Source: an uncultured Candidatus Saccharibacteria bacterium (GTDB lineage: Bacteria; Patescibacteriota; Minisyncoccia; Phycocordibacterales; JAACPR01). From it: a stretch of 64,000 bases of DNA. Location of the stretch: NCBI GenBank assembly GCA_964538855.1, contig CAZIEY010000001.1, forward strand, positions 245,389 through 309,388. The letters are read 5' to 3'. Shown here in pieces: positions 4,368-48,950 of this stretch. Numbering within the stretch: position 1 is the first letter of the stretch; each line of letters opens with the position of its first letter. The position numbers were made by a program, and so were the translations under genes. The notes under the pieces were generated by a model. That model saw only the letters and a program-made list of their open reading frames with translations, had not been told where the DNA came from and did not search any database.

Positions 4368-6104
4368 TTATTCAGAGATAACACGCAAAACCTCTTCGAT
4401 TGTTGTGTGTCCGAGAGCTGCTTTGTAAATTCCGTCTTCAAGCATAGTAAGCATGCCTTCGCTCTTGGCTTGATCCTCGATTTTTTCAGCAACCTCGCCT
4501 TTAATAATCAAATTACGAATAGTGTCGGTGACATGCAAAATTTCATGGATTCCAACTCGACCATGAAATCCATCATCGTCGCCTTCGGCAATCGGTTTAT
4601 AAAAAGGAATCTTTTTCCAAGTCGCGCCCACAGGAACTTCCTTTGCCTTAATCAAAGTCTCTAAAATCTTTTTCATGTCTGCTTTTTTCTCGAGCTGAGC
4701 GAGCGCTGGCGCTGTCAAAAAATATTTTTCTTTCTTGACGAGGCGACGTACCAAACGTTGCGCAATGATTACTTTTAAAGTTGAGACGAGCAAAAATGGC
4801 TCGGCACCCATATCGATCATACGCGGAATTGTTCCTGCCGCAGAATTTGTGTGAAGTGTCGAAAGAACAAGGTGACCAGTCAACGATGCATTAATTGCAA
4901 GTGACGCAGTCTCCCCATCTCGAATTTCCCCCACCATAATAATATCCGGGTCCTGACGCACCAACGTTCGTAAACCTTCAGAAAAAGAAAATCCAATATC
5001 CGGTTTCACCTGCGTTTGGTTAACGCGTTTCATTTGATATTCAATCGGATCTTCGACCGTTGAAATGTTCACGTCCGGCGTGTTAAGCAAATCCAAAAGC
5101 GTGTAGAGTGTCGTCGACTTTCCGGAACCAGTCGGACCAGTCGCCAAAATTAAACCGGTTGTTTGTTTGAGGGCTTCGTGAATTTGTTCCAAACCGTCGC
5201 CATGAAAACCGAGCGATTCCAAAGTAAATCCACCGCCACCTTCGCGCAAAATACGCATCACAGTTTTTTCTCCGTAATACACCGGCAAAATAGATACACG
5301 GAAAGAAACTTTTTCGGCATCAAGTTCAATTTTAAATCGTCCGTCCTGCGGTAAACGCTTTTCGTCGAGTTTCAAGTTCGACAAAACTTTGATACGCGCC
5401 GTGATCGCCCCGCCAACGTGTTTTGGCAACGTCATCGCATCGTGGAGCAAACCATCCACGCGATATCGCACCACCAATTCTTTTTCGGCTGGTTCGATAT
5501 GAATGTCGGATGCTCCCTGCAAAATTGCGTGCTTCAAAAGTGTGTCCACAATTTTCACCACTGGCAAATCAGCCGCGATTTTTTGTAAGTCATCTTCGCT
5601 CGTTTCTTCGCCGCCAGTATCCTTGATTTCGGCTGTCTGCGTTTTAATAATGTCTCCAAAATCCGCCTTCAAAGATTTCTGGTACTGAATAAGAGCCTTT
5701 TTAAGCGAATCAGTCGACGTGAGACGTGGCAAAATTCGCAACCCCGTTTTTTTATGTACGAAATCAATCGCCGACAAATCATCAGTGTCGAGCATGGCAA
5801 CCTCCAAATCCTTGCCGTTCTGTTTGTAGGCAATAATGTTGTGTTTGCGCGCAATCGGCTCAGGAATAATAGAGAGAACTTCGAAAGGAATTTTATTTGT
5901 GCCAGCGTCAATAAATGGAATTCCGAGGATGTAGGCCTGGACGCGTTTGAGATCATCTTCGGTGATTTTTCCTTCGCTCACCAAATAGTTTCCGAGCGTC
6001 ATCGATCCGTCCGCTACTTTTTTTTCGGCAGAGAGAATATCCTCACGACTGACGAGGCCAGAGTCAACAATAAACTCTTTTAATTTGTCATCCTCAATGT
6101 ACAC
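4368..6104 (-). CDS. pilB: Type IV pilus assembly ATPase PilB (GspE family)
   Basis: 578 aa with Walker A GPTGSGKSTT, Asp/His boxes and an N-terminal GspII-type domain. No C-terminal tetracysteine motif. Confidence 0.85.
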   Translation of the reverse strand: MYIEDDKLKEFIVDSGLVSREDILSAEKKVADGSMTLGNYLVSEGKITEDDLKRVQAYILGIPFIDAGTNKIPFEVLSIIPEPIARKHNIIAYKQNGKDLEVAMLDTDDLSAIDFVHKKTGLRILPRLTSTDSLKKALIQYQKSLKADFGDIIKTQTAEIKDTGGEETSEDDLQKIAADLPVVKIVDTLLKHAILQGASDIHIEPAEKELVVRYRVDGLLHDAMTLPKHVGGAITARIKVLSNLKLDEKRLPQDGRFKIELDAEKVSFRVSILPVYYGEKTVMRILREGGGGFTLESLGFHGDGLEQIHEALKQTTGLILATGPTGSGKSTTLYTLLDLLNTPDVNISTVEDPIEYQMKRVNQTQVKPDIGFSFSEGLRTLVRQDPDIIMVGEIRDGETASLAINASLTGHLVLSTLHTNSAAGTIPRMIDMGAEPFLLVSTLKVIIAQRLVRRLVKKEKYFLTAPALAQLEKKADMKKILETLIKAKEVPVGATWKKIPFYKPIAEGDDDGFHGRVGIHEILHVTDTIRNLIIKGEVAEKIEDQAKSEGMLTMLEDGIYKAALGHTTIEEVLRVISE

Positions 6105-19801: not shown

Positions 19802-20137
19802 TTAGTACGCCCGCTTTCCCTTTGTAGAAAGTGCGACGAGTTCGTTGAACGAATCCCCTACCGCGGCCTTATTTCTGCGTTCGTGACTACATTTCTGACA
19901 TTTTTGGACAATATAAAAAACATCGCTTTTATTTTCGAGGCTCGTCGGTTCCATCAATCCCCCGCAAGTCGCTGCGCGATCCCCAGGATTCACATCCACG
20001 TGTTTTGACCACAGACATTTCGGGCAATGATTTGTATAGCCGTTTCCATGCACCAGCTGTCCGCATTTTTCACACACAAAATCCTCCTCTCGCTTTTGAA
20101 ACTGCTTCGCCGGTAAACTTCCCTTTGATTCTGCCAT
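19802..20137 (-). CDS. RNHCP-domain zinc-ribbon protein
   Basis: Contains FVCEKCGQ...YTNHCPKCLWSKHVD...CQKCSHER. The start was trimmed to Met44 of the track ORF because the upstream part overlaps tRNA-Pro. Confidence 0.5.
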   Translation of the reverse strand: MAESKGSLPAKQFQKREEDFVCEKCGQLVHGNGYTNHCPKCLWSKHVDVNPGDRAATCGGLMEPTSLENKSDVFYIVQKCQKCSHERRNKAAVGDSFNELVALSTKGKRAY

Positions 20138-20144
20138 ATAAATG

Positions 20145-20217
20145 TCGGAGCACTGGGATTCGAACCCAGAGTCATTCGCTCCCAAAGCGAACATGTTAGC
20201 CGTTACACCATGCTCCG
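20145..20217 (-). tRNA. tRNA-Pro(TGG), no encoded CCA
   Basis: Acceptor CGGAGCA/TGCTCCG, anticodon loop TTTGGGA, T-arm CTGGG-TTCGAAT-CCCAG. Confidence 0.75.
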
Positions 20218-20272
20218 ATATAACAAAGCAAATACTATCAGAAATGCGGCGATAAACAAGGGTCATATGCCT

Positions 20273-21070: not shown

Positions 21071-21144
21071 TGGTGCGGCCAGGGAGAATCGAACTCCCGT
21101 CTAATCCTTGGCAAGGACTCGTTCTACCACTAAACCATGGCCGC
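21071..21144 (-). tRNA. tRNA-Gly(GCC), CCA encoded
   Basis: Acceptor GCGGCCA/TGGCCGC, anticodon loop TTGCCAA. Confidence 0.85.
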
Positions 21145-21191: not shown

Positions 21192-21263
21192 TGCACCCGG
21201 AGGGACTCGAACCCCCAATAACGGTTCCGAAGACCGTTGTGATATCCATTTCACCACGGGTGC
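21192..21263 (-). tRNA. tRNA-Arg(TCG), no encoded CCA
   Basis: Acceptor GCACCCG/CGGGTGC with discriminator A, anticodon loop CTTCGGA, T-arm GGGGG-TTCGAGT-CCCTC. Confidence 0.7.
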
Positions 21264-27614: not shown

Positions 27615-27690
27615 CCTATACACAGAGCACACAAAAACTTTAGAATTTCTTTAGACTTTCTTGAAAGTTTCTTCACACCCAATCAGTATA

Positions 27691-29250
27691 ATGATGGGTG
27701 TGATTTTTTCAAAAAACTTTTCAAAAGTATACAGCGCCCAGCCAGCACTTCTGAACGCGCGGCGAGTTGACGTAGAAGTGGATATTTCTCCAGGGCTGCA
27801 CACTTTTACTATTGTCGGGTTGCCAGACAAAGCTGTGGACGAGGCGCGTGACCGAGTCTCATCTGCCATCAAAAATTCTGGGTTTGTTTCGCCCAAACAA
27901 AAAAATCATAAAATTATTGTTTCTCTCGCCCCAGCTGACATTCGAAAAACTGGACCGACCTTTGACCTTGCCATTGCAGTTGGATATTTAAAATCGACGA
28001 GACAAATTGATTTTGATTCAGAGAAAAAATTGTTTGTGGGCGAATTATCGCTCGACGGGAAATTGCGTCCCATGAACGGTATTGTGCCGATTATGATTTT
28101 TGCCCAAAAGGCTGGGTTTACTGAAATCTTTATGCCGAAATCAAACGCAGTCGAGGCAGGACTCGTTGATAAAGTAAAAATTTTTGGGGCAGAAAGTCTC
28201 GACGAGGTTCTGATGCATTTGCGAGGCAAAAAAGAAATCGCAGTCGCTGCGAAAACAAAGACTGCCCCGGAAAATCTAGAGGTGGCGACACGATGGAAAA
28301 ATGAAACGGAATGGGGTCAAATTTTTGGACAAGAAAAAGCCAAAAGAGGATTGTTGATCGCGGCCGCAGGCGGACACAACATCGCTTTTTACGGTCCACC
28401 GGGAACAGGAAAAACGATGCTCGCAAATTCTCTTATTGGGCTTTTGCCGGCGCTTGATTATGAAAAAGTAATCGAGTGTACGTCGATACATTCAACCTTG
28501 ACCGAGCTACCACCATTTCGATCACCCCATCATACTTCGTCACACACTGCGATTGTTGGTGGAGGGGCATATATGAAACCAGGCGAGATTACTCTAGCTC
28601 ACAACGGGGTTCTATTTCTTGATGAATTTCCAGAATTTAATCGCCAAGTCGTTGAATCACTCCGTGAACCAATCGAACGCGGCTCAATTTCTATTTCAAG
28701 AGCTCATGAAAAAATAACCTTGCCGAGCAACTTCATTTTAGTCGTAGCAATGAATCCATGTCCGTGCGGATATTTCGAGACAGGAATCAAGCCGTGTGTA
28801 TGCACCCCACACAACATCAATCGATATCGCAAGAAAATTTCAGGCCCCATCGTCGATCGAATCGATATGTGGATTGAAGTTTCAAATGTCTCTTTTGAAA
28901 GCCTTGATTCTGCCGAAAAGTCTGGAGCAAATTTAAAAAATGGCGACGATTTTATAAAAATAAAATCCCAAGTACTAGCGGCTCGAAAAATTCAGCAACT
29001 GCGTTTCAATTCGCACAAACTAAACAAAGAAATTCCCGTAAAAAAGATTCCGGAATATTGCGCCATGGCGACTGAAGCAAAGAATATCCTTAGAACTTCT
29101 GCAGAGACTTTGAAATTATCGATGCGTGGATACCAAAAAATCATCAAATTAGCGCGCACTATCGCAGATCTAGATTCAAAAAATAGGGGAGGACAAATCA
29201 AAAAAGAACATATTTTAGAGGCGCTTCAATACAGACCGAAAATTAATTAA
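27691..29250 (+). CDS. comM: Mg-chelatase-like AAA+ protein ComM/YifB
   Basis: VYSAQPALLNARRVDVEVDI N-terminus, Walker A GPPGTGKT, Walker B VLFLDEF. Start taken at Met11 of the track ORF. Confidence 0.85.
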   Translation: MMGVIFSKNFSKVYSAQPALLNARRVDVEVDISPGLHTFTIVGLPDKAVDEARDRVSSAIKNSGFVSPKQKNHKIIVSLAPADIRKTGPTFDLAIAVGYLKSTRQIDFDSEKKLFVGELSLDGKLRPMNGIVPIMIFAQKAGFTEIFMPKSNAVEAGLVDKVKIFGAESLDEVLMHLRGKKEIAVAAKTKTAPENLEVATRWKNETEWGQIFGQEKAKRGLLIAAAGGHNIAFYGPPGTGKTMLANSLIGLLPALDYEKVIECTSIHSTLTELPPFRSPHHTSSHTAIVGGGAYMKPGEITLAHNGVLFLDEFPEFNRQVVESLREPIERGSISISRAHEKITLPSNFILVVAMNPCPCGYFETGIKPCVCTPHNINRYRKKISGPIVDRIDMWIEVSNVSFESLDSAEKSGANLKNGDDFIKIKSQVLAARKIQQLRFNSHKLNKEIPVKKIPEYCAMATEAKNILRTSAETLKLSMRGYQKIIKLARTIADLDSKNRGGQIKKEHILEALQYRPKIN

Positions 29251-30335
29251 AATTTACACGCTCGACCAACAATACAATCTGCAAGGGGGTTTTTGGCACC
29301 ACGCACTTCGAAGTGGGTGTGATTTCCCGTAGAATTTCCAGTCGAACCCACATATCCGATCATTTGACCTTTTTCAACTTGTTCACCAACCAAGACAAGA
29401 TTCTTTGATGTGTGACCATACAGTGTTTGTACGCCATTTGCGTGTGAAATAACTATCATTTTTCCATAGCCTCCGTTCCAACCGATTTCGGTACTCTTGA
29501 TGACAGTACCGGCAGCAGCGGCATAAATTGGTGTGCCAAGCGGAGCACCAATATCAACTCCGTTATATCCGTGCAAATTTTGAGTCAAAACCCCCGCCGG
29601 AACTGGATTTATGAAATATGTTCTCGAATCAACCTTTGGGTTAATTGGGAATTTATTAATGAGGGGAGTTGTACCATCTGCACGTTGAGACGACGCATTT
29701 GAAGCAGAAGCAAGTTCGACATTGGGTACAATAATTTTTTGACCTGGCACAAGCGGGGTCTTTTCATCAATACCGTTAAAGAGCGCAATTTCCGCCACAT
29801 CAGCATCATAAATTTTGGCAATATTTTGAATTGTTCCTCCGATTTTCACGGTGTGAGTAATTCCAGTTACTGGCAAAATCAACAATGTTTGGCCGGGCTT
29901 GATTGACCCCTTCAATTCGTTGGCCCATTTGATCGTATTAACTGACACATCAAACATTTCAGCAATTTGTGACAAGGTATCGCCCTCACGAACCTCATAC
30001 ACACTGATAGTACCCGCATGATCGGCCTTTTCTATGTCGAGCGTCGTTCCCGCAAGACCAGATTCAGCCATAAGCGCCATGCCTTCTACTACAACAACAT
30101 GTCCACCATCTTTACTTGGATTGGGGTCTAAATTAACAGCTGCCTGCAAAATGGGGATATTCTGTGAATTCACGTCAGTTGTACCTTTTTCTTGAGAAAA
30201 AGCCTTATTTATATAAGTAAAATTGGGAAAATCACCAAGTGATATGGCTTGTGCAGTATTTGAAGTGAGAATTGATACAAAGAGAGTAATTAAGAGGGTT
30301 AAGTTCTTAAAAACACTCTTTTTCAATATGGTCAT
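29247..30335 (-). CDS. Secreted M23-family peptidase with two LysM domains
   Basis: Signal peptide, two LysM-like segments (DTLSQIAEMF..., GTIQNIAKIY...) and M23 catalytic HxxxD/HxH motifs (GVDIGAP..., GNHTHFE). Confidence 0.8.
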   Translation of the reverse strand: MTILKKSVFKNLTLLITLFVSILTSNTAQAISLGDFPNFTYINKAFSQEKGTTDVNSQNIPILQAAVNLDPNPSKDGGHVVVVEGMALMAESGLAGTTLDIEKADHAGTISVYEVREGDTLSQIAEMFDVSVNTIKWANELKGSIKPGQTLLILPVTGITHTVKIGGTIQNIAKIYDADVAEIALFNGIDEKTPLVPGQKIIVPNVELASASNASSQRADGTTPLINKFPINPKVDSRTYFINPVPAGVLTQNLHGYNGVDIGAPLGTPIYAAAAGTVIKSTEIGWNGGYGKMIVISHANGVQTLYGHTSKNLVLVGEQVEKGQMIGYVGSTGNSTGNHTHFEVRGAKNPLADCIVGRACKF

Positions 30336-32547: not shown

Positions 32548-33339
32548 ATGGTCTACGCAAAAAAATCACTCGGACAGAACTTTCTCAAGTCAGAGGCGGC
32601 TTTGCGTGAAATTATTGAGGCAGGGCACATCACCGCGGGGGAGACAGTGCTTGAAATTGGGCCGGGACGCGGGGCGTTGACCGACTATTTATTGAAAGCG
32701 GGCGCAAACGTAATCGCCATTGAAAAAGATCGCGAACTGATTGCTGTGCTTAACGAAACTTTTAAAGAGGCGGTGGCAAGCGGTGCACTGCGCATCATCG
32801 AAGCCGACATTTTGGAATGGAATCGCGCGGAATTACCTGCGGACTACAAAGTCATCGCGAACATTCCTTACTACATCACCGGCGCAATCATCCGAATGTT
32901 TTTTGAAGCCGACCATCAACCAAGCAAAATGGTGCTTCTTGTACAAAAGGAAGTGGCCGACCGCATCGTGGCTCGCGACGGAAAAGAAAGCATTTTATCG
33001 GTCTCTGTCAAAGCATATTGCACCCCGCGCCTCGTCAAAGTTGTGAAAGCCGGCTCTTTTGTGCCAGCACCCGCCGTTGATTCAGCAATTATCGAATTTA
33101 GCGATATTTCTAAACGTCTTTTCGTCGAACACGGCGTCAACGAATCTGCATTTTTCATGGTCGTCAAAGAAGGTTTTGCCCACAAGCGCAAGGTTTTGCG
33201 CAGCAATTTAGCCGACCTCGCTACTCGTTTTGATAAAAACATGTCAGAAATCCTATTAAAGGCAGATGTCGTAGGAAATGCGCGGGCAGAAGACTTGAAA
33301 CTGGAAAATTGGTTTAAAATTGCGCAACCTTTCTCATAA
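32548..33339 (+). CDS. rsmA: 16S rRNA (adenine1518/1519-N6)-dimethyltransferase
   Basis: KKSLGQNFL signature and the SAM-binding LEIGPGRGALT motif. Confidence 0.85.
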   Translation: MVYAKKSLGQNFLKSEAALREIIEAGHITAGETVLEIGPGRGALTDYLLKAGANVIAIEKDRELIAVLNETFKEAVASGALRIIEADILEWNRAELPADYKVIANIPYYITGAIIRMFFEADHQPSKMVLLVQKEVADRIVARDGKESILSVSVKAYCTPRLVKVVKAGSFVPAPAVDSAIIEFSDISKRLFVEHGVNESAFFMVVKEGFAHKRKVLRSNLADLATRFDKNMSEILLKADVVGNARAEDLKLENWFKIAQPFS

Positions 33340-35877: not shown

Positions 35878-38265
35878 ATGTTACATGGGATTTATAAAAA
35901 AATAGGCCTGTTTTTTATACTATTAGTTATAATGGTCGTACCCACCGTGTCGTTACATGCGACGAGCTTATCGACAATGGTAAAAGATCGCGCGTTCGAG
36001 GATAATAGCAACAACGCTCGCGCAAGATATTTAAACGAATATAAAAAAGAATACTCTGATTTGGTTGACAAAATCGCTGGCTCCCAAACTTCAAATCAGG
36101 AAGATTTGCAAAGAAAAGCCAAACTTGAATATCTATTACCAAAAGCAATGAGTTCTAGTGAGTGGGCTAGTTTTTCTCACGCAAACATACACCCAAATAA
36201 AATAAGCAATGTGTCATTTGGGTCTTTATACAATGGCAATACAGATGGTGTCCAAGCAACTGATATATATACAAGAAAAGAAGGAACGGATGACGTTTAC
36301 ACGAGTAATAATCCGAAATTCAAGGACGTCGAATTTACATTGTCACTGAAAAGTGATGGTACATACCAAGTTAAGCGCGCCTACAATCCTGTAACGAAAC
36401 AGGATTTCAGTGTTACAACTGAGGCACAATTACAAGCACTTAAAAAGGCAGCGGAGGCAGACGATGTCGAGATTGTTTGTTATACCGGAGTCAGCACAAT
36501 ACTTAGTACAATTAACCCCCTCTGTTGGATAGCGAAATTTTCTTACTACATCATATTCACTATTAGCTCATGGTTTTTGAGTATATCTGGCCAATTGTTC
36601 AATTTTGTTGTCGTGCAAACTGTTGTTGAGATGAAGGAACTCATCCAAGACAATATCGTCAACCAAGGATGGATCTTATTCAGAGATATTATAAATATTC
36701 TATTCATATTCGTACTTATATATGCAGCGATAAGCACCATTCTAAAGGGAACAAGTGACACAGGAAAAACCATCGTAACAGTTATCGTGGTTGCTGTTTT
36801 AATTAACTTTAGTCTATTTTTTACAAAAGTGATTGTTGATATTTCAAACACACTTGCAGTTAGTTTCTATAATTCCATTACAACGATGCCCCTAAAAGAT
36901 GCAAAGGGTAAGCCTGTTACCATAAACAGCAGTGCTCAATTCGGGATTGCCGAGGTGTTCTTAACTCAAACAAATATGACGACTATTGTCGGCACCAACC
37001 CAGAAAATATTAAGTGGGGTGTTGCGTCATTAACTTATCTCGGAATCATCAAACAGACCCTCATTGCCTCTGTATTTATCGTCATACTGGGAGTAGTTCT
37101 TTTGCTGATGTCATTGATGCTAGTCACCCGATTCCTGATCCTGATATTTGTGATGATCACATCTTCGCTGGCATTTGGATCCTACATACTACCCAAACTC
37201 CAAAGTCAAGTTGCCGACAAATGGTGGCCAGCTCTCATTGGACAAGCGTTCTTTGTACCGGTATTTTTCTTGATGTTATACATTACACTCAAATTTTCCC
37301 AAACACTTCCATTCGACAAAGGTACCGGTTGGGCAAATATGGCACATATTGTACCAGGACAAATAGTCACTTATATTATGATTGTTGGAATGCTTATTCT
37401 ATCAATGAAAGTTGCAAAGAGTATGGCTGACGAAGCGGGCGCGGCGTCCGGAAAAATTACTGGGATGTTGGGCGGGGCAGCACTCAGCGTCACAGGATTT
37501 GCTGCGCGTCACTCAATTGGAATTGCTGCTCGAGAGATAGCAAACAGCAAGCTCCTTTCTGGTAGCGGTCTAACCGCAAGAACTTTGCGTGCTGGATTTG
37601 GCCGTATAGGAGAAAGCAGCTTCGATGCCAGACATTCTGATACATTCAGTCATATAAATGATGCTGTTGGCGGAACCGACTTTGGCAAGGGTCGCGGAGA
37701 AGGTGGTTATGACAAGTTTGCCGACAAGCGAGAGAAGTACCACAAAGAAAAATATGCTGAGGAAGAAAAGGCATATAAAGAAGAGGGCAAATTCACTGAC
37801 GATGAGCAGGACGCTGTTACTGCTGGTCTACAATTTGAGAAAGAAAATAAGTCTGCTATGGAGGTGAAGAAATTGGTTGACGCTAGGGATAAACTCGCTG
37901 CTCGACAGGCTGCTGCGGCTACCCAGCTTGAAAAAGATGCGATCCAAAAACACATCGATAACGTTAATAATGAAATCAACAAAAAAGATATCACGGAAGC
38001 TGACGCAAAAGCAATATACGATAACGCAGATAACAAGAAGATTCTTGACGCCAAGAAAAAAGCAGAAGCTGCCGCAAAAGAAAGGCAAACGAAATTCCTC
38101 GAATCTCGTCAAAAGACTCGATGGGGAATCCGCAGTGGAGATGGTGCTAAATTTGCTCGCGAGCAACTTGCTAAAAACGCCAAGGAGAAAACTGACACCG
38201 ACAGACTTCTTGAGGGTTTGAAAGCATCAGCCAATAGTGGTGGAGGAGGTGGAGGTAAACCATAA
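35878..38265 (+). CDS. Large polytopic membrane protein, putative VirB6/TrbL-like type IV secretion channel component, with a Lys/Glu-rich coiled-coil C-terminus
   Basis: 795 aa with a signal/TM, 6 or more central TM helices and a charged tail. Sits two genes upstream of the PrgI-like and VirB4 genes. Confidence 0.45.
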   Translation: MLHGIYKKIGLFFILLVIMVVPTVSLHATSLSTMVKDRAFEDNSNNARARYLNEYKKEYSDLVDKIAGSQTSNQEDLQRKAKLEYLLPKAMSSSEWASFSHANIHPNKISNVSFGSLYNGNTDGVQATDIYTRKEGTDDVYTSNNPKFKDVEFTLSLKSDGTYQVKRAYNPVTKQDFSVTTEAQLQALKKAAEADDVEIVCYTGVSTILSTINPLCWIAKFSYYIIFTISSWFLSISGQLFNFVVVQTVVEMKELIQDNIVNQGWILFRDIINILFIFVLIYAAISTILKGTSDTGKTIVTVIVVAVLINFSLFFTKVIVDISNTLAVSFYNSITTMPLKDAKGKPVTINSSAQFGIAEVFLTQTNMTTIVGTNPENIKWGVASLTYLGIIKQTLIASVFIVILGVVLLLMSLMLVTRFLILIFVMITSSLAFGSYILPKLQSQVADKWWPALIGQAFFVPVFFLMLYITLKFSQTLPFDKGTGWANMAHIVPGQIVTYIMIVGMLILSMKVAKSMADEAGAASGKITGMLGGAALSVTGFAARHSIGIAAREIANSKLLSGSGLTARTLRAGFGRIGESSFDARHSDTFSHINDAVGGTDFGKGRGEGGYDKFADKREKYHKEKYAEEEKAYKEEGKFTDDEQDAVTAGLQFEKENKSAMEVKKLVDARDKLAARQAAAATQLEKDAIQKHIDNVNNEINKKDITEADAKAIYDNADNKKILDAKKKAEAAAKERQTKFLESRQKTRWGIRSGDGAKFAREQLAKNAKEKTDTDRLLEGLKASANSGGGGGGKP

Positions 38266-38897: not shown

Positions 38898-39347
38898 ATG
38901 AAATACCAAGTCCCACAATTCATCGAGGTCGAGGACAAGATTTTTGGTCCACTCACACTCAAACAGTTTCTCTACGTCGCCGGTGGGGCAGCGATTGGTT
39001 TTATTATTTGGTCGGCAGTTCCAGTAAAATTTATTGCAATAGTAGCCGCGCTACCAGTTGTAATCTTTTTTCTCGCCATGGCATTCTATCGCGTAAATGA
39101 ACGACCTTTCGTAACACTCGTAGAAAGTTCGATCAGATATTTTTTTGGGACTAAACTATACATTTGGCATAAAATCGAAAGGAAGCCTGTGCAGACACAA
39201 AACACTTCTACACCCACAGCAGCGAACAATCTTGATGTACTTATCCCAAAACTTTCCGATAGCAAACTGAAAGAATTAACCTGGAGTCTCGACATTAATG
39301 AAAAACTTGGTAATTCCGGAACCACGAGTGAAAAATTTAAGGTATAA
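38898..39347 (+). CDS. PrgI-family (VirB3-like) small membrane protein
   Basis: N-terminus MKYQVPQFIEVEDKIFGPLTLKQFLYVAGG plus two TM helices matches the PrgI-family pattern. Lies immediately upstream of VirB4. Confidence 0.55.
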   Translation: MKYQVPQFIEVEDKIFGPLTLKQFLYVAGGAAIGFIIWSAVPVKFIAIVAALPVVIFFLAMAFYRVNERPFVTLVESSIRYFFGTKLYIWHKIERKPVQTQNTSTPTAANNLDVLIPKLSDSKLKELTWSLDINEKLGNSGTTSEKFKV

Positions 39348-39365
39348 TGTTTTTGTACCTTTTAT

Positions 39366-40001
39366 ATGGCAACATCTAGCAAACCAACCCAGGAATTCGT
39401 GCCCATCCAAGAAGTTCGTGATGGTATCATCGTCATGCGCGACGGATCGATGCGCGTGATTTTGCTTGCTTCGTCAGTGAATTTCGCCCTCAAATCAGAA
39501 GACGAGCAGGCTGCGATTACATTTCAATTCCAAAACTTCTTGAACTCACTAGATTTTAGTATGCAAATTTTCTTGCAGTCACGCCGGCTCGACATTCGAC
39601 CGTACCTCGCACTTCTCGCTGACAGACAAAAGCAACAAATCAACGACTTAATGCGTATCCAGATTCGCGAATACTCTAATTTCATCAAGAGTTTCACTGA
39701 AAATGTAGAAATCATGACAAAAAACTTCTTCATAGTAGTGCCATATGTACCACTTCGTCTCGATTTCACAAAAAGCGCGGGGTCATTTGGAAAACCAAAA
39801 AAGGATTCGGGGCAAGAAAAAAGTGAGAACTTTGAAGAGGCGCGAATACAGCTCGATCAGCGCATTTCAATCGTCTCAGGCGGACTCTCACGTTGTGGTA
39901 TTCGAACCGTCGTCCTGGGAACAGAAGAAGTGGTCGAAGTCTTCTACAAATTGTTCAACCCGGGTGACATGGACAAGCCGATTTCACTAACACAAAAATA
40001 A
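39366..40001 (+). CDS. VirB4/CagE/TrbE N-terminal domain protein (separate ORF)
   Basis: EFVPIQEVRDGIIVMRDGSMRVILLASSVNFALKSEDEQ resembles the N-terminus of Gram-positive VirB4 (PrgJ/TrsE-type). Stop TAA sits 1 nt before the next ATG, in a different frame. Confidence 0.45.
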   Translation: MATSSKPTQEFVPIQEVRDGIIVMRDGSMRVILLASSVNFALKSEDEQAAITFQFQNFLNSLDFSMQIFLQSRRLDIRPYLALLADRQKQQINDLMRIQIREYSNFIKSFTENVEIMTKNFFIVVPYVPLRLDFTKSAGSFGKPKKDSGQEKSENFEEARIQLDQRISIVSGGLSRCGIRTVVLGTEEVVEVFYKLFNPGDMDKPISLTQK

Positions 40002-40002
40002 T

Positions 40003-41901
40003 ATGGGAATATTCGATTTTCTAAAAAAGAAGGAAGTAGCAACAAAAGGACCAGACATCACCTCGTTTTTGCCACAGCAAATTTATGAGGCAGGTGTCTT
40101 GGAATTACGCGACATTATCGCACCATCTGCTTTGAAAATTACCCCAAAAACACTCAACCTCGGCGAAAAGGTGGTGCGTAGCTTCTTTGTAATTTCATAT
40201 CCGCGCTTCTTGTCAGACAGCTGGTTTGCACCGATTATCAACATGGACAAAGTTTTTGATGTCTCGATTTTCGTCCATCCGATTGAAACTTCAAAAATTC
40301 TAAAGCAATTTCAAAAAAAGGTGGCCGAAGTTCAAAGCCAAATTAACATGCGTGCAGAAAAAGGTCTTGTGCGCGATCCGCAATTAGACACTGCATACCA
40401 AGACCTCGAATCATTGCGAGACAATTTGCAACAAGCACAAGAACGCATTTTTGATGTCGGACTCTACATTACAATTTACGCCGATAACGAAGAAGAATTA
40501 GACAAGGTCGAGTCGGAATTCAAATCAATCCTAGAATCCAAGTTGGTTTACATGAAACCGGCTCTTTTCCAACAAGAAGAAGCTTTCAAAACGGTCATGC
40601 CTCTTTCAACAGACCTTCTCAATATCCATTCCAAGCTTAACTCTGGACCTCTTTCAAGTATTTTTCCATTCATTTCTTTTGAATTAACCAGTGATCGGGG
40701 AATTTTGTACGGAATCAATCGCCACAATTCAGGGCTCGTCTTGTTCGACCGATTCTCACTCGAAAACTACAACTCAGTGACATTTGCAAAAGCTGGTTCC
40801 GGAAAATCGTACGCGACCAAATTGGAAATTTTGCGTTCACTCATGTTTGGTACCGAAGTAATCGTGCTCGACCCAGAACGAGAATATGAATTTCTTGCCG
40901 AAGCAACCGGCGGGCGATATTTCAACGTATCTCTTTCATCAGAACATCATATCAATCCGTTCGACTTGCCGCGCGCAACAGGGGACGAGGAACCTGCGAA
41001 TATTTTGCGCTCTAACATTGTAAACCTCGTCGGGCTTTTCCGTCTCATGTTCGGAGGGCTTTCACCAGAAGAAGATGCGATTATCGACCGAGCAATCAGC
41101 GAAACATACGCCCTCAAAGACATTACACCTGATTCTGATTTCTCAGATATCGAACCACCGCTCTTGTCAGACTTCGAATTAGTTTTGGCTGGTATGGAAG
41201 GTGCAGAAAGTCTCGTCCAAAAATTGAGCAAATACACGAAAGGAACTTGGTCTGGCTTTATCAATAAACCAACAAACGTTGACCTCACCAAACATTTCAC
41301 TGTATTTTCATTGCGCGATATGGAAGACGAATTAAAGCCAATCGCAATGTATTTGATCACGCACTACATTTGGATCGAAGTTCGCCGTGAATTAAAAAAA
41401 CGCCTCCTCGTGATCGACGAGGCATGGTGGATGATGAAATCAGAAGACACCGCCTCTTTCCTATACGGACTCGCAAAACGAGGTCGAAAATACTATCTTG
41501 GACTTTCAACAATCACACAAGACGTTGAAGACTTTATGAGCTCACCATATGGAGTGCCGATTATTACAAACTCATCAATTCAATTTTTGATGAAGCAATC
41601 TCCATCTTCAATCGACGTAGTCCAGCGCACCTTTAACCTGACTGACGAAGAAAAATTCCTTTTACTTGAATCAAACGTAGGGGAGGGTATTTTCTTCGCT
41701 GGCATGAAACACGTTGCCATGAAGGTAATCGCCTCATACACCGAAGATCAAATTATCACGTCCGATCCGTCTCAAGTTTTGTCAATTCGTCGTGCAAAAG
41801 AAGAATTCAAAAATGCCCAAGCAACTGGCAGTGAGGGTCAGGACTTCAACCGTTCAAGCATCAGCAAGGTACGCGAAAACCTCCAAATCAACAAGGCTTA
41901 G
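40003..41901 (+). CDS. VirB4-like type IV secretion ATPase (ATPase domain)
   Basis: Walker A FAKAGSGKSYATK, Walker B LLVIDEAWWMM and the CagE/TrbE/VirB4 C-terminal architecture. Confidence 0.8.
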   Translation: MGIFDFLKKKEVATKGPDITSFLPQQIYEAGVLELRDIIAPSALKITPKTLNLGEKVVRSFFVISYPRFLSDSWFAPIINMDKVFDVSIFVHPIETSKILKQFQKKVAEVQSQINMRAEKGLVRDPQLDTAYQDLESLRDNLQQAQERIFDVGLYITIYADNEEELDKVESEFKSILESKLVYMKPALFQQEEAFKTVMPLSTDLLNIHSKLNSGPLSSIFPFISFELTSDRGILYGINRHNSGLVLFDRFSLENYNSVTFAKAGSGKSYATKLEILRSLMFGTEVIVLDPEREYEFLAEATGGRYFNVSLSSEHHINPFDLPRATGDEEPANILRSNIVNLVGLFRLMFGGLSPEEDAIIDRAISETYALKDITPDSDFSDIEPPLLSDFELVLAGMEGAESLVQKLSKYTKGTWSGFINKPTNVDLTKHFTVFSLRDMEDELKPIAMYLITHYIWIEVRRELKKRLLVIDEAWWMMKSEDTASFLYGLAKRGRKYYLGLSTITQDVEDFMSSPYGVPIITNSSIQFLMKQSPSSIDVVQRTFNLTDEEKFLLLESNVGEGIFFAGMKHVAMKVIASYTEDQIITSDPSQVLSIRRAKEEFKNAQATGSEGQDFNRSSISKVRENLQINKA

Positions 41902-41945
41902 GAAAGCCGGCTTTTCTCGCGAATTTTTGTAGTATAATTTGAGTA

Positions 41946-43025: not shown

Positions 43026-43544
43026 ATGCGCACATTGAAACTATCGCAAAAAAAAATATTAGTAGGTTCTTTAATATTTACTCTGCTTACCCCTTTTGCT
43101 CTATCTGCCCAAATTTTTAACAGCTCAAATTCTACCTTGCCGCAAGCTCAACAGGGCGCATCAAATCCTGCTGCGACGCAAAATACTACTGCCCCAAAAC
43201 CTGACACAACACAAAAAACCACAGCACCTTCCTCAAAGAAAAGCTACACATCACTCACTGATATTCCAGGACTAACTCAGAACGGCACCAATTCCAATAT
43301 GTTAGCGACTCTCCAATTCATATTCAAGTGGGGAATTGCGGTTGCTGTGTTGCTTGCAATCCTAATGACAATTATAGGCGGAGTACAATATATGACCACC
43401 GATGCGATGTTTGCCAAAGAAGAGGGTAAGCACAAAATTCAATCAGCAATAATGGGGCTTCTCCTCGCTCTTTCGGCTTGGATTATTCTCTACACCATTA
43501 ACCCGCGCATTCTCGAAAAACCAGATTCTGAATTGTTAAGATAA
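43026..43544 (+). CDS. Pilin-like (VirB2/TrbC-like) membrane protein with a Thr/Gln/Pro-rich N-terminal extension
   Basis: Signal peptide, low-complexity region, then two hydrophobic helices (WGIAVAVLLAILMTIIGG..., AIMGLLLALSAWIILYTI) typical of T4SS pilins. Confidence 0.45.
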   Translation: MRTLKLSQKKILVGSLIFTLLTPFALSAQIFNSSNSTLPQAQQGASNPAATQNTTAPKPDTTQKTTAPSSKKSYTSLTDIPGLTQNGTNSNMLATLQFIFKWGIAVAVLLAILMTIIGGVQYMTTDAMFAKEEGKHKIQSAIMGLLLALSAWIILYTINPRILEKPDSELLR

Positions 43545-44862: not shown

Positions 44863-44983
44863 TAAATAAAAATAACTTTAAATTTTAAAAGTCTGGTTGA
44901 GCATCAAAACAAAACACACATTCATTTCTGAACGTGCGTGATGAGACCCGAGGACTTTAAAATTTAAAGTTATTTTTATTTAC
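44863..44983. repeat. Palindromic intergenic repeat, full copy: about 28-bp perfect inverted arms around a 65-nt core
   Basis: Arms GTAAATAAAAATAACTTTAAATTTTAAA / TTTAAAATTTAAAGTTATTTTTATTTAC. Core shared (reverse complement) with the copies at 52981 and 23247. The yidC stop codon lies inside the right arm. Confidence 0.6.
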
Positions 44984-45695
44984 GCTCTCTCCTAAGATAG
45001 AGCTCTTGGCCAATTGAGAAAATATTGCTTGTCGTAAAATAGAGGGCGAGAAGCGCACCTAATTGAGCAGAAATAAAGAACATAATGATCGGCAGAACAT
45101 ATTTCATCTGCATATTCATACCTTTCATAATATCTTCCATCATTTTTTCTTTCGAGCCTGCTTCGGCAGTATTAGTCGGCTTGTTATTGGCCGCCATAAT
45201 GTGCGCTTGAATTAGTTGCGAGAAGGCCGCAGTAAAGGCAAGAAGGTACGATTTTGCCGTCAAAGTGATAAATCCGAGAAATACCACATTCACGGACGCT
45301 GGGATTGAAATAAACGAGTATAGAATGTCGGTATTAATATTTGGAAGACCTTCTCGAAGAAAAACAAAATAGAGAGCAAAAATAATTGGTAGTTGAATCA
45401 AAATCAACAAAATACTCGCAAAAGGCTTGATGTTATTTTCTCTATAAATCCGCATCATCTCGGTTGCCATCATCTGGCGATCATCTTTGTACTTATCCTG
45501 AATTTCTTTTATTTTTGGCGCAATCTCCTTCATCTTTATTTGAGAACGAATAGCATTTCGAGAGATAGGGAAGAGAATTGCCCGGACAATCACCGTCAAA
45601 ATAATGATCGCAAGTCCGAGATCACCAAAGGGAATAATATTAAGAATAAAGATTAACGCGTTATAAAGTGGTTCTACGATAAAGTTTTGGTACAT
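44976..45695 (-). CDS. yidC: Membrane protein insertase YidC (short, Gram-positive/Oxa1-type)
   Basis: 239 aa with 5 TM helices and a basic C-terminal tail. Conserved position next to rnpA. Confidence 0.8.
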   Translation of the reverse strand: MYQNFIVEPLYNALIFILNIIPFGDLGLAIIILTVIVRAILFPISRNAIRSQIKMKEIAPKIKEIQDKYKDDRQMMATEMMRIYRENNIKPFASILLILIQLPIIFALYFVFLREGLPNINTDILYSFISIPASVNVVFLGFITLTAKSYLLAFTAAFSQLIQAHIMAANNKPTNTAEAGSKEKMMEDIMKGMNMQMKYVLPIIMFFISAQLGALLALYFTTSNIFSIGQELYLRRERK

Positions 45696-46271: not shown

Positions 46272-47624
46272 ATGTTAAACACTCTTGATTACAAAACATT
46301 ATGGGAAGATGCTTTGATTAGCGTTGAAAAAGAAATTTCAAAAGCTAACTTTAAGACTTGGTTTAAAGATACTTTTATAAATAAATATGATGACGGGGTG
46401 ATTCAAATCGGAGTCCCCAACACTTTTGTTAAAGATTGGCTTAATAACAAGTTTAATAAAGTTGTTTTAAAGGCTTTACGTGATATTAATGACTCCATTC
46501 GGGCAGTTGAATATACTGTCTGCAAGATTGAAAAGGCTAAAAACCAAGAAAACAAAAGGATTTTTGCCAAAAACCCAAACGAGCTTCCTTTGGCGGACTA
46601 TTATATTAATCGTGAAGACAATTTAAATCCGCGCTACATTTTCGAGAGCTTCGTTATTGGTCCGTTCAACGAATTGGCGCACGCAGCTGCACAAGCAATC
46701 ATCAAGCAGCCAGGAATCGTCTACAACCCACTCTTTGTGTACGGCAGCACAGGGCACGGCAAAACTCACCTCATCCAAGCGATAGGGAATCAGATCAAAA
46801 CACAGTATAAAGACAAAAAAGTCTACTATCTCACCTCTGAAAAATTCCAATCCGAATATATTGATGCTGTTCAAGCAAACCGCGTAAACCAGTTCAAGGA
46901 AAAATATAGAAAATATGATGTTGTCATTATGGACGATATTCAATTTTTATCTAAAAAAGAAAAAACCCAAGAAGAATTGTTTCACCTATTCAATACTCTC
47001 TACGACAACAACAAACAGATCGTCTTTTCTTCTGATCAACACCCAAATTTCATTCCGGGGCTCGAAGACCGCCTCAAATCTCGCTTTAATCAAGGAATGA
47101 TTGTTGATATTCCTCAACCTGATCATGAATCGAGAATCGCTATTTTACGTTCAAAAATAGACCGCAGCGAGGTAAATATCCCAGAAGATATCGTTAATTT
47201 CCTTGCTCAAACCATAGAGGGAAACATTCGTGAATTAGAGGGTGCTGTAAACTCAATCATTTGCCACACACAACTGAAAGGTCGCGATCTATCGTTCAAT
47301 GAAATCAAAGACCTTATTAAAAACAATTCAAAACCAAAGAAAATGGTTTCGGTCAATGAACTCATTAAAATTGTCTCTGAATTCTATAATATCGAAGAAA
47401 AAAGCATCTGCGATAAAACTCGTCGCAAAGAAATTGTTCGACCTCGCCAGGTAACTATGTATATTTTGCGAGAAGACTTTAACATCTCTTACCCAACAAT
47501 TGGGGAAAAGTTGGGGGGAAGAGATCACACAACCGTCATTCACTCTTGTGACAAAATCAAGAGGGAAGTGTTACTAGATAACACATTATCGCAACAAATT
47601 AACCAGATCAGGTCTATGTTATAA
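46272..47624 (+). CDS. dnaA: Chromosomal replication initiator protein DnaA
   Basis: 450 aa with AAA+ Walker A GSTGHGKTHL and a C-terminal DNA-binding domain. Very AT-rich coding sequence. Confidence 0.9.
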   Translation: MLNTLDYKTLWEDALISVEKEISKANFKTWFKDTFINKYDDGVIQIGVPNTFVKDWLNNKFNKVVLKALRDINDSIRAVEYTVCKIEKAKNQENKRIFAKNPNELPLADYYINREDNLNPRYIFESFVIGPFNELAHAAAQAIIKQPGIVYNPLFVYGSTGHGKTHLIQAIGNQIKTQYKDKKVYYLTSEKFQSEYIDAVQANRVNQFKEKYRKYDVVIMDDIQFLSKKEKTQEELFHLFNTLYDNNKQIVFSSDQHPNFIPGLEDRLKSRFNQGMIVDIPQPDHESRIAILRSKIDRSEVNIPEDIVNFLAQTIEGNIRELEGAVNSIICHTQLKGRDLSFNEIKDLIKNNSKPKKMVSVNELIKIVSEFYNIEEKSICDKTRRKEIVRPRQVTMYILREDFNISYPTIGEKLGGRDHTTVIHSCDKIKREVLLDNTLSQQINQIRSML

Positions 47625-47846: not shown

Positions 47847-48950
47847 ATGAAATTCGAATGTAATAAAGAAAAAATATCTGCGGCAATAAATCGATCGGAC
47901 AGGATCACAGGAAAAAATGCAAGCCTCCCAGTTCTTGCTTGTATTCTAATTGATGCCAAAAAAGACGGTGTAACTGTAAAATCAACAAATCTTGATATTG
48001 GTCTTGAAATATCAATCTCTTGCAAAGTCTCTGAGCCGGGAATAGTTGCGGTATCAGGAGGTATCCTCAATTCATACCTCTCTAGTTTGAGTAAAAACGA
48101 CTCAACATTGAATTTTAGTCTACAAAATGACAATCTGTATATCTCATCGAAAAATAGCGAGACGGTGATTAAAACACATCCTCACGACGATTTTCCAAAC
48201 ATCCCACGCATTAAAGAAGAGCAATCGTTTCGAATTGAGCCAAAGGATCTTTTGAAAGGATTTCAGTCTGTGTGGTACAGCGCATCCATTTCGAACATAA
48301 AACCAGAACTTTCAAGTGTTTATATTTATCCTGAAGGTGAAAATATTTACTTTGTGGCTACCGACTCGTTTAGACTAGCAGAAAAAAATGTGAGACTTGG
48401 AAAAACCGATGGTTTTCAGGCTATTTTAATCCCTTTCAAGAATACCACTGAAATTGCACGTGTTTTTGATGACAGCAGCGAAGTGATAGATATTTTCTTT
48501 GATGAAAACCAAATAGTTCTAAAGAATAATGAAGTATATGTTATTTCTCGTATTGTTGACGGAGTCTTTCCTGACTATAAACAGATTATCCCCAAAACCG
48601 AGACAACAGTTGTGAATGTATTAAAAGACGACTTTGTTCAGGCGATGCGCGTTTCTAATATCTTTTCAAATAATTTTAATCAGACAACCATCTCGATAGT
48701 ACCGAGCGACTCTGTTATGGAAATTTCGACACAGAATAAGGACAAAGGGGAAACCATTAATAGAGTAAAAGCAAATATAGAAGGTGAGGCAATTAAAATT
48801 AGCTTTAATCATAAGTATATTAATGATTGTCTTGGATCAATCAACTCTGACACTCTCAAGTTGATTTTTAATGGAAACGGAAAACCTCTTGTTATTATGG
48901 GTTCAAAAGATAGCACTTTCAGATATTTGGTGATGCCGATGAATAAATAG
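47847..48950 (+). CDS. dnaN: DNA polymerase III beta sliding clamp
   Basis: 367 aa with three-domain clamp architecture, immediately after dnaA. Confidence 0.9.
   Translation: MKFECNKEKISAAINRSDRITGKNASLPVLACILIDAKKDGVTVKSTNLDIGLEISISCKVSEPGIVAVSGGILNSYLSSLSKNDSTLNFSLQNDNLYISSKNSETVIKTHPHDDFPNIPRIKEEQSFRIEPKDLLKGFQSVWYSASISNIKPELSSVYIYPEGENIYFVATDSFRLAEKNVRLGKTDGFQAILIPFKNTTEIARVFDDSSEVIDIFFDENQIVLKNNEVYVISRIVDGVFPDYKQIIPKTETTVVNVLKDDFVQAMRVSNIFSNNFNQTTISIVPSDSVMEISTQNKDKGETINRVKANIEGEAIKISFNHKYINDCLGSINSDTLKLIFNGNGKPLVIMGSKDSTFRYLVMPMNK

What the first reader, a model, noticed from the sequence alone, without database searches (positions are those of the whole stretch)
39366..41901. VirB4 ATPase appears split into two ORFs (N-terminal domain and ATPase domain) in different frames
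The 211-aa ORF at 39366 resembles the N-terminal domain that is normally fused to VirB4-family ATPases. Its TAA stop (39999-40001) is separated by a single nucleotide from the ATG of the 632-aa ATPase ORF, and the two are in different reading frames. This could be a genuine two-gene arrangement, a programmed frameshift, a sequencing indel, or a recent pseudogenisation.
Basis: partly seen in the sequence, partly recalled or inferred. Interest (0 to 1): 0.55.

Follow-up and report, generated by a model that had tools for sequence, protein, structure and literature searches.

The report
Conserved two-gene (TrsD-like + VirB4) secretion ATPase
The type IV secretion ATPase VirB4 really is encoded here as two adjacent genes, but this is the normal, conserved and already published arrangement in Patescibacteria (a TrsD-like protein followed by a short VirB4), not an error, a frameshift or a dying gene.

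Summary
A 211-aa ORF (39366-40001) ends in TAA, one base follows, and a 632-aa ORF (40003-41901) starts in the +1 frame.

The split is conserved:
- In 79 of 79 related species genomes holding both genes they are separate, in all three relative frames, 13 nt overlapped to 496 nt apart.
- Independent assemblies share the identical junction.
- dN/dS is about 0.01 for both genes.
- No full-length fusion turned up in a junction-spanning search of 5.8 billion proteins.

So assembly indel, programmed frameshift and pseudogenisation are all rejected.

The arrangement (VirB3-like PrgI, then TrsD-like, then short VirB4) matches pSK41 trsC-trsD-trsE. ORF2 and TrsE even begin at the same residue. The literature (Microb Genom 2025, PMC12102498) already reports TrsD homologues beside virB4 near dnaA across Patescibacteria.

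Refinement: the break lies inside the VirB4 N-terminal domain, not at its border with the ATPase domain. Verdict: already known, low interest.

The parts
38898..39347 (+). PrgI-family (VirB3-like) small membrane protein, 149 aa, directly upstream of the pair
   Evidence: Pfam PF12666 PrgI, E 3.1e-10, above the curated cutoff. Hydrophobic stretch covering roughly residues 23-67 (19-residue windows starting at residues 23-49). Same position as trsC in pSK41.
39343..39348 (+). TATAAT -10-like box ending 17 nt before the ORF1 ATG; possible promoter for the ORF1-ORF2 transcript
   Evidence: Consensus match only. 28 of 50 genes in the window have such a box within 30 nt of their start, against 11% at random positions.
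39366..40001 (+). ORF1: TrsD-like protein, 211 aa, equivalent to the first ~190 residues of a full-length VirB4; soluble
39999..40005 (+). Junction TAA-T-ATG: ORF1 stop, one base, ORF2 start
   Evidence: Identical in three other independent assemblies that differ at other positions.
40003..41901 (+). ORF2: N-terminally short VirB4 ATPase, 632 aa (rest of the N-terminal domain plus the P-loop domain)
   Evidence: NCBIfam CD1110 VirB4, 358 bits against a cutoff of 325, model positions 185-733/752. Pfam P-loop_TraG, AAA_10, DUF87. PDB matches: 4AG5 VirB4 C-terminal domain E 3e-38 and TrwK 446-735. Aligns to PrgJ 228-772. Aligns to TrsE from residue 2 onward. dN/dS 0.009.
40795..40809 (+). Walker A (GSGKS, ORF2 residues 265-269)
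41410..41424 (+). Walker B (VIDEA, ORF2 residues 470-474)
41895..41908 (+). Weak terminator-like hairpin at the end of ORF2; none lies between ORF1 and ORF2
   Evidence: Consensus scan only: 14 sites found against 9.2 expected.
43026..43544 (+). VirB2-like T4SS pilin, 172 aa, in the same cluster
   Evidence: Pfam PF18895 T4SS_pilin, E 4.9e-7, above cutoff.
35878..38265 (+). 795-aa protein at the head of the cluster whose sequence reads as hydrophobic and multi-spanning by eye; candidate VirB6-like component (position only, not shown)
   Evidence: No Pfam or NCBIfam family. Conserved in the same position in L083 and L085.

Best explanation
This is the standard chromosomal type IV secretion (T4SS) locus of a Patescibacteria (Paceibacteria-type) genome. 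It lies next to yidC-dnaA-dnaN and ksgA. In this lineage VirB4 is encoded by two genes.

ORF1 is a 211-aa soluble TrsD-like protein. It corresponds to the first ~190 residues of a full-length VirB4, that is, the first part of the VirB4 N-terminal domain. ORF2 is a 632-aa protein carrying the rest of the N-terminal domain plus the P-loop ATPase domain.

Shown: the two ORFs are homologous to consecutive, non-overlapping parts of VirB4. The split is conserved across species and is under strong purifying selection. The break point coincides with that of TrsD/TrsE in staphylococcal plasmid pSK41.

Inferred: the two polypeptides reassemble non-covalently into a VirB4-like subunit. In the R388 structure the VirB4 N-terminal domains connect the protomers of each dimer and contact VirB3 and VirB8. 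By analogy, the TrsD-like piece would dock the ATPase hexamer onto the adjacent PrgI/VirB3-like membrane protein.

Also inferred: ORF2 has neither a Shine-Dalgarno sequence nor a usable -10 box of its own. It is therefore probably translated from the ORF1 transcript by termination-reinitiation at UAAUAUG, which would give roughly equimolar products.
For: Homology and tiling on VirB4:
- ORF1 and ORF2 match consecutive stretches of the same VirB4 models.
- ORF2 aligns to PrgJ 228-772 of 796, and to TrwK 446-735 and the 4AG5 C-terminal domain.

Conservation of the split:
- The top 120 ORF1 homologues are all 202-234 aa. The top 120 ORF2 homologues are all 602-659 aa.
- In 79 of 79 species loci the genes are separate, with relative frames 33/24/22. 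Spacing runs from -13 to +496 nt, and 52 of 79 loci have 10 nt or less.
- In some relatives another gene sits between the two.
- The junction is identical in independent assemblies.
- dN/dS is 0.011 for ORF1 and 0.009 for ORF2.
- No ~840-aa fusion appeared in the junction-spanning search.

Same split as pSK41:
- The order trsC-trsD(227 aa)-trsE(672 aa) is the same.
- ORF2 residue 3 aligns with TrsE residue 2 (IFDFLKKKE / IMAFLKKKK), E 2e-34.
- All 20 ORF1 relatives hit the TrsD/TraD model.

Literature:
- PMC12102498 reports TrsD as the most abundant T4SS component in Patescibacteria. It describes TrsD as remotely homologous to the VirB4 N-terminus, mostly adjacent to virB4, essential in Southlakia, and in a cluster near dnaA/dnaN/ksgA.
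- This window has ksgA, yidC, dnaA and dnaN flanking the cluster.
- PMC12857230 describes the VirB4 N-terminal-domain contacts with VirB3 and VirB8.

Expression: Shine-Dalgarno-like motifs occur in only 3 of 50 genes, and ORF2 lacks a usable -10 box.
Against: - ORF1's sequence matches to VirB4 and TrsD profiles are far below the curated family cutoffs (18.6-30.2 bits against 200-643).
- hhalign of the shallow ORF1 alignment against single TrsD or PrgJ sequences was not significant.
- No PDB hit was found by sequence.
- The ORF1 model is of moderate confidence (pLDDT 73) and the TM-scores are modest (~0.49).
- No physical interaction between ORF1, ORF2 and PrgI was tested.
- The ORF2 model failed (pLDDT 41), so the position of the break inside the N-terminal domain rests on sequence alignments only.
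- Translational coupling is inferred from sequence alone. Some relatives have their own -10-like box before virB4.
Confidence: 0.93

Rival explanations
1. A programmed +1 ribosomal frameshift at the end of ORF1 (CAA AAA UAA U) produces a single fused VirB4.
For: In this window ORF2 is in the +1 frame. An A-run followed by a stop codon sits in the 8-nt stretch that is open in both frames. ORF2 has no Shine-Dalgarno sequence or promoter box of its own.
Against: Relatives use all three relative frames (33/24/22). Their spacers range from a 13-nt overlap to 496 nt, with stops in every frame, and in some another gene lies in between. The codon before the stop varies among loci that share the 1-nt spacing. 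The ORF2 N-terminus MG(I/L)FDF... is conserved right from its ATG. The same start is used by TrsE in pSK41.
Confidence: 0.02
2. A 1-nt sequencing or assembly indel artificially split one gene.
For: The frames differ by one base and the junction holds an A5 homopolymer. Indel-rich assemblies do create artefacts at this locus in the opposite direction: a pseudo-fusion in L086.
Against: The junction CAAAAATAATATGGG is identical in a Logan assembly of SRR13208906, in GCA_013558375 and in GCA_964412465. The last two differ from the window at other, synonymous sites. All 79 species loci are split. Removing one base would still leave the in-frame TAA.
Confidence: 0.005
3. Recent pseudogenisation of a formerly intact VirB4.
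For: None beyond the split itself.
Against: dN/dS is about 0.01 in both halves. At least 8000 homologues of each half have conserved lengths. Walker A and B are intact. The split is shared with pSK41 TrsD/TrsE, so it is ancient. The TrsD homologue is reported as essential in Southlakia (PMC12102498).
Confidence: 0.005
4. ORF1 is an unrelated accessory protein that merely sits upstream of a naturally short VirB4; its similarity to the VirB4 N-terminus is spurious.
For: Sequence scores lie well below family cutoffs. hhalign against single sequences was not significant. No PDB hit by sequence.
Against: All 20 relatives independently hit the N-terminal stretch of two VirB4 models (CD1110, VirB4_plasma) and TrsD, with best E-values from 5.7e-13 to 6.5e-8; 12 of 20 also hit TIGR00929 and a few hit TrbE/VirB4 models. 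Two structure-comparison methods put TrwK/VirB4 first. ORF2 lacks exactly the region that ORF1 matches.
Confidence: 0.04

Closest known systems
TrsD + TrsE of staphylococcal conjugative plasmids pSK41/pGO1 (TrsD/TraD family NF041427; MPF_FATA pGO1 subclass)
   Same: The gene order is the same: VirB3-like (trsC / PrgI), then a ~210-230-aa TrsD, then a ~630-670-aa VirB4 without the N-terminal ~190 residues. ORF2 and TrsE align from their very first residues. ORF1 and all 19 tested relatives hit the TrsD/TraD model.
   Different: ORF1 scores far below the TrsD family cutoff (18.6 against 200 bits). ORF2 and TrsE share only 23% identity. The window locus is chromosomal, next to the replication origin genes, and has a VirB2-like pilin in the cluster. 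No Pfam family hit pointing to a relaxase or coupling protein turned up among the ORFs scanned between 27661 and 51660 (several have no hit at all). pSK41 is a conjugative plasmid with 14 nt between trsD and trsE, against 1 nt here.
Chromosomal T4SS of Patescibacteria (Quinonero-Coronel et al. 2025, PMC12102498; Southlakia epibionticum SEML1_0006-0019, Wang et al. 2023, PMC10633639)
   Same: The component set is the same: VirB4, TrsD homologue, PrgI/VirB3 and a VirB2-like pilin. The TrsD homologue lies next to virB4. The cluster sits near dnaA, dnaN and ksgA.
   Different: Nothing essential; this window is another member. In the parts read here, the paper describes TrsD as 'remotely homologous to the N-terminal portion of VirB4' with no assigned function. 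In those parts it does not spell out that the accompanying VirB4 lacks that portion, nor that the break point is shared with TrsE.
Full-length VirB4 ATPases (PrgJ of pCF10, 796 aa; TrwK of R388, 823 aa)
   Same: ORF1 plus ORF2 together (843 aa) cover the whole protein in order. ORF2 has the P-loop ATPase with Walker A and B motifs. A VirB3-like gene lies directly upstream.
   Different: Here there are two polypeptides instead of one. The break falls at about residue 190, inside the N-terminal domain.
Split coupling protein of pIP501 (TraI membrane anchor + TraJ ATPase) and VirB3-VirB4 fusions in some Gram-negative systems
   Same: These examples show that the modules of T4SS ATPases are joined or separated in different lineages (PMC12857230; PMC12102498).
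   Different: Different proteins and different break points. This is an analogy only.

Membership tests
TrsD/TraD family (NCBIfam NF041427) | Whole-protein score at or above the curated cutoff (200 bits) | tested here: not met
   18.6 bits, E 1.3e-3 for ORF1. The best among 20 relatives is E 9.7e-9. ORF1 is a remote homologue, not a member at NCBI's threshold.
TrsD/TraD family (NCBIfam NF041427) | Stand-alone ~200-230-aa protein encoded between a VirB3-like gene and an N-terminally short VirB4 | tested here: met
   Window order is PrgI (38898-39347), ORF1 (211 aa), ORF2 (632 aa), against pSK41 trsC, trsD (227 aa), trsE (672 aa).
TrsD/TraD family (NCBIfam NF041427) | Match to the CONJScan/MacSyFinder TrsD profile used in the literature | not testable with these tools
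   The profile is not available here. PMC12102498 reports 2,272 such hits in Patescibacteria.
Pfam PF26593 (TraC-like) | Pfam hit on the protein | tested here: met
   A precomputed hit with no 'weak' mark is recorded for the identical 211-aa protein and for all 120 listed homologues. The local Pfam copy does not return this model.
VirB4 family ATPase (CD1110-type, NF045971) | Score at or above the curated cutoff; P-loop domain with Walker A and B | tested here: met
   ORF2 scores 358 bits against a cutoff of 325. GSGKS is at residues 265-269 and VIDEA at 470-474. 4AG5 matches at E 3e-38.
VirB4 family ATPase (CD1110-type, NF045971) | N-terminal region and ATPase domain in one polypeptide | tested here: not met
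   ORF2 covers model positions 185-733 only. Positions 2-105 are matched by ORF1. No fused form exists among relatives.
VirB4 N-terminal region (structural) | ORF1 fold resembles the VirB4 N-terminal domain | tested here: met
Patescibacteria chromosomal T4SS (PMC12102498) | VirB4 + TrsD + PrgI/VirB3 + VirB2-like pilin clustered near dnaA/dnaN/ksgA | tested here: met
   ksgA is at 32548-33339, yidC at 44976-45695, dnaA at 46272-47624 and dnaN at 47847-48950.
Patescibacteria chromosomal T4SS (PMC12102498) | No relaxase or coupling protein in the cluster | tested here: inconclusive
   No relaxase or VirD4 family hit among the ORFs scanned between 27661 and 51660. Several ORFs have no family hit at all, and the rest of the window was not scanned.
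Programmed ribosomal frameshift genes (prfB/dnaX type) | Conserved frame relation and conserved slippery site at the junction; no independent start for the downstream part | tested here: not met
   Relatives use all three frames with variable spacers, and the last codon before the stop varies. The N-terminus is conserved from the ORF2 ATG onward.

The most novel reading that the evidence does not exclude
The split may be functional rather than neutral. As a free subunit, the TrsD-like module could be dosed or exchanged independently of the ATPase. For example, it might occupy only some positions of a VirB4 assembly, or gate the docking of the ATPase onto PrgI/VirB3. That would explain why the same break point has been kept both in pGO1-type plasmids and across Patescibacteria, where the gene is reported as essential. 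A much less likely variant is low-level +1 frameshifting at CAA-AAA-UAA-U, which would add a minor fused isoform in this particular lineage.
Probability: 0.2. Interest if true: 0.4.

Novelty: already known. Interest (0 to 1): 0.15.

Why it matters
The practical value is for annotation. The 211-aa gene should be named as a TrsD-like / VirB4 N-terminal module and the pair should not be flagged as a frameshifted pseudogene.

Biologically, the Patescibacteria T4SS is reported as essential for the epibiotic lifestyle, and TrsD has no assigned function. Three points from this analysis give a concrete, testable hypothesis for TrsD as the VirB3-docking or dimerising piece of a two-part VirB4:
- ORF1 plus ORF2 tile a complete VirB4.
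- The break lies inside the N-terminal domain.
- The break point is shared with pSK41 TrsD/TrsE.

This refines published knowledge and is not a new kind of system.

Tried and rejected
- PDB sequence search with the ORF1 profile found nothing relevant.
- hhalign of the shallow ORF1 alignment (Neff 1.8) against the single sequences of pSK41 TrsD and pCF10 PrgJ was not significant. The TrsD alignment fell in the expected register; the PrgJ alignment was spurious.
- The AlphaFold model of ORF2 built from 24 close homologues was unusable (pLDDT 40.6), so it was not fold-searched.
- The afdb50 fold library was unavailable.
- A first script flagged L009 and L038 as in-frame fusions. Inspection showed normal stops, so both are split.
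- Four junction-spanning database proteins (P0241-P0243, P0245) looked like fusions. All are fragments with frameshift scars. The locus of P0241 (L086) has virB4 broken into four pieces, typical of an indel-rich assembly.
- A paired ORF1+ORF2 concatenated alignment was prepared for co-folding but not submitted, because the tool only accepts unmodified sequences.
- The pELF plasmid paper on 'TraD' turned out to concern a VirD4 homologue and is irrelevant.
- Guglielmini 2014 does not mention TrsD in its main text.
- The promoter scan of the region was at chance level, 21 sites against 19.4 expected.
Full report
OBSERVATION

The ORFs are exactly as described. ORF1 runs 39366-40001 (+), 211 aa, and ends in TAA at 39999-40001. 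One base (T at 40002) follows. ORF2 starts with ATG at 40003 and ends at 41901, 632 aa, in the +1 frame. ORF2's frame is closed by a TAA at 39988-39990, so only 8 nt (CACAAAAA) are open in both frames.

WHAT THE TWO ORFS ARE

ORF2 is a VirB4-family ATPase.
- It scores 358 bits on NCBIfam CD1110 VirB4 (cutoff 325), covering model positions 185-733 of 752.
- It has Pfam P-loop_TraG, AAA_10 and DUF87.
- Walker A (GSGKS) is at residues 265-269 and Walker B (VIDEA) at 470-474.
- It aligns to the crystallised VirB4 C-terminal domain 4AG5 over ORF2 231-587 (E 3e-38), and to TrwK 446-735 over ORF2 257-553.
- It aligns to pCF10 PrgJ residues 228-772 of 796 over ORF2 39-567.

ORF2 therefore lacks about the first 190 residues of a full-length VirB4. 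It still keeps ~225-250 residues ahead of its P-loop domain.

ORF1 matches just the missing stretch.
- It hits CD1110 positions 2-105, VirB4_plasma positions 100-232 and TIGR00929 positions 4-156. It also hits the TrsD/TraD family at positions 16-142 of 201.
- These scores are weak (18.6-30.2 bits). However, all 20 aligned ORF1 relatives reproduce the CD1110, VirB4_plasma and TrsD hits, with best E-values of 5.7e-13, 9.7e-9 and 6.5e-8; 12 of 20 reproduce the TIGR00929 hit.
- An AlphaFold model of ORF1 (pLDDT 73) has TrwK/VirB4 chains of R388 as its 13 best Foldseek hits in the PDB (E 4.4e-4, prob ~1.0, TMq ~0.49).
- Neither ORF1 nor ORF2 has a hydrophobic segment. The upstream PrgI-family protein (38898-39347, PF12666) does.

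The two ORFs thus tile one VirB4. The break falls inside the N-terminal domain, not at its border with the ATPase domain.

IS THE SPLIT REAL AND CONSERVED?

Yes, on several independent lines.
- ORF1 has at least 8000 homologues. The top 120 (61-100% identity) are all 202-234 aa.
- ORF2 has at least 8000 homologues. The top 120 (76-96% identity) are all 602-659 aa.
- A scan of one genome per species found 577 relatives. Of the 80 loci fetched, 79 hold both genes, and in all 79 they are separate.
- In those 79 loci the relative frames are 33/24/22. The spacing runs from a 13-nt overlap to 496 nt, and 52 of 79 loci have 10 nt or less.
- Long spacers have stops in all frames. Four of them (L004, L020, L050, L064) contain a ~114-134-aa ORF of the same type, two of which were confirmed by Pfam scan as 23S_rRNA_IVP genes.
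- The N-terminus of the ATPase (MG[IL]FDF...) is conserved from its ATG.
- Three other independent assemblies carry the identical junction CAAAAATAATATGGG: Logan SRR13208906, GCA_013558375 and GCA_964412465. The last two differ from the window at other positions.
- Against GCA_964412465, ORF1 has 53 synonymous and 3 non-synonymous differences. ORF2 has 203.5 and 10.5. dN/dS is about 0.01 for both.
- A chimeric query spanning the junction returned 1831 hits and no ~840-aa fusion. Four junction-spanning fragments all carry frameshift scars. One sits in a locus where virB4 is broken into four pieces, typical of an indel-rich assembly.

This rejects assembly indel, recent pseudogenisation and any conserved recoding mechanism.

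COMPARISON WITH WHAT IS KNOWN

In pSK41 the order is trsC (VirB3-like), trsD (227 aa), trsE (672 aa). ORF2 aligns with TrsE from residue 3 to residue 2 (IFDFLKKKE / IMAFLKKKK) through to the end of the ATPase domain, E 2e-34. The break point is therefore the same.

The literature already covers this arrangement.
- Quinonero-Coronel et al. [quoted passage not shown]
- They count 2,272 homologues, of which 1,664 are associated with virB4.
- They report the TrsD homologue as essential in Southlakia epibionticum, with no function assigned.
- They find the cluster often near dnaA, dnaN and ksgA.
- Wang et al. 2023 (PMC10633639) describe the essential Southlakia T4SS.

The window fits this picture. 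ksgA lies at 32548-33339, yidC at 44976-45695, dnaA at 46272-47624 and dnaN at 47847-48950. A VirB2-like pilin lies at 43026-43544. Source annotations already name the proteins 'TraC family protein' or 'VirB4 component', and Pfam has PF26593 'TraC-like'.

HOW IT LIKELY WORKS (INFERENCE)

In the R388 structure the VirB4 N-terminal domains connect the protomers of each dimer, embed in the membrane and contact VirB3 and VirB8 (PMC12857230). By analogy, the TrsD-like protein would associate non-covalently with the short VirB4 to complete its N-terminal domain. It would then dock the ATPase onto PrgI/VirB3.

Shine-Dalgarno-like motifs precede only 3 of 50 genes in the window. In contrast, 28 of 50 genes have a -10-like box within 30 nt of the start codon, usually ending 6-11 nt before it, against 11% at random positions. 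This suggests leaderless or short-leader mRNAs.

ORF1 has a TATAAT ending 17 nt upstream of its ATG. ORF2 has no usable box, and no terminator separates it from ORF1. ORF2 is therefore probably translated from the ORF1 transcript by termination-reinitiation at UAAUAUG. Some relatives with longer spacers have their own -10-like box before virB4, so the mode of expression is not fixed.

LIMITS

- ORF1's sequence similarity to VirB4 and TrsD is below the family cutoffs.
- The ORF1 model is of moderate confidence.
- The ORF2 model failed (pLDDT 41).
- No interaction was tested.
- Raw reads were not available.

VERDICT

This is a real, conserved two-gene VirB4: a TrsD-like protein plus a short VirB4. 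It is typical of the Patescibacteria chromosomal T4SS and of pGO1/pSK41-type plasmids, and it is already known. The modest additions here are the tiling and break-point analysis and the comparative junction statistics.

Noticed in passing
L050, L064, L004, L020, L006 (spacer between the TrsD-like gene and virB4, locus coordinates ~4630-5120); also L080, L012, L060: In some relatives the spacer is 411-496 nt. In four of the five long spacers (L004, L020, L050, L064) it holds a similar ~114-134-aa ORF; two of these were scanned and are 23S_rRNA_IVP / bAvd-like four-helix-bundle proteins (PF05635, E 1e-35 for L050 and 4e-43 for L064). L006 has only a short, apparently degenerate ORF. Several spacers (L006, L050, L020; also the shorter L012 and L060) are flanked by 25-33-nt inverted repeats. 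In L006, L050 and L080 a perfect 18-19-bp hairpin straddles the stop codon of the TrsD-like gene (dG -24 to -32). This looks like an IVS-like mobile cassette that targets this junction. It is absent from the window.
   Followed up: partly
whole window (50 gene starts): Shine-Dalgarno-like motifs precede only 3 of 50 genes. In contrast, 28 of 50 genes have a TATAAT-like box within 30 nt of the start codon, mostly ending 6-11 nt before the ATG, against 11% at random positions. This suggests widespread leaderless or very short-leader mRNAs in this organism.
   Followed up: partly
L086 3001-5505 (ENA ERZ25039527 contig_92561): An apparent in-frame TrsD-VirB4 fusion (P0241, 328 aa) sits in a locus where virB4 is fragmented into four ORFs. 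The junction reads GAAAATAAAATGATGG. This is most likely homopolymer indel errors of the assembly, or a decaying copy, rather than a real fusion.
   Followed up: partly
window 29247-30335 (-) and 27661-29250 (+): An M23 peptidase with two LysM domains and a ComM-like Mg-chelatase/AAA protein lie a few kb upstream of the T4SS cluster. PMC12102498 notes M23/LysM-containing VirB1-like hydrolases near virB4 in Paceibacteria.
   Followed up: no
window 35878-38265 (+): The 795-aa protein heading the cluster reads as hydrophobic and multi-spanning by eye and has no family hit. Its C-terminus is a long Lys/Glu/Ala-rich, coiled-coil-like region ending in GGGGGGKP. It is conserved in the same position in L083 and L085 and is a candidate VirB6-like component.
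   Followed up: no
window 20145-20217 (-) versus ORF 19802-20266 (-): A tRNA (Rfam, 63.9 bits) lies inside a 154-aa mechanical ORF on the same strand, so that ORF is probably not a gene. Two more tRNAs lie at 21074-21144 and 21192-21263.
   Followed up: no
L071 (DATGWK010000001.1): A contig labelled 'Candidatus Nanoarchaeia archaeon' carries the same bacterial TrsD-like/VirB4 pair (58% identity to ORF1, 1-nt spacer). This is probably a mis-binned or misclassified Patescibacteria contig.
   Followed up: no
window 39366-41901 versus homologues: The ATPase half is clearly more conserved than the TrsD-like half. The top 120 homologues are 76-96% identical for ORF2 and 61-100% for ORF1. ORF1 has a variable low-confidence linker at residues ~132-150.
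   Followed up: no
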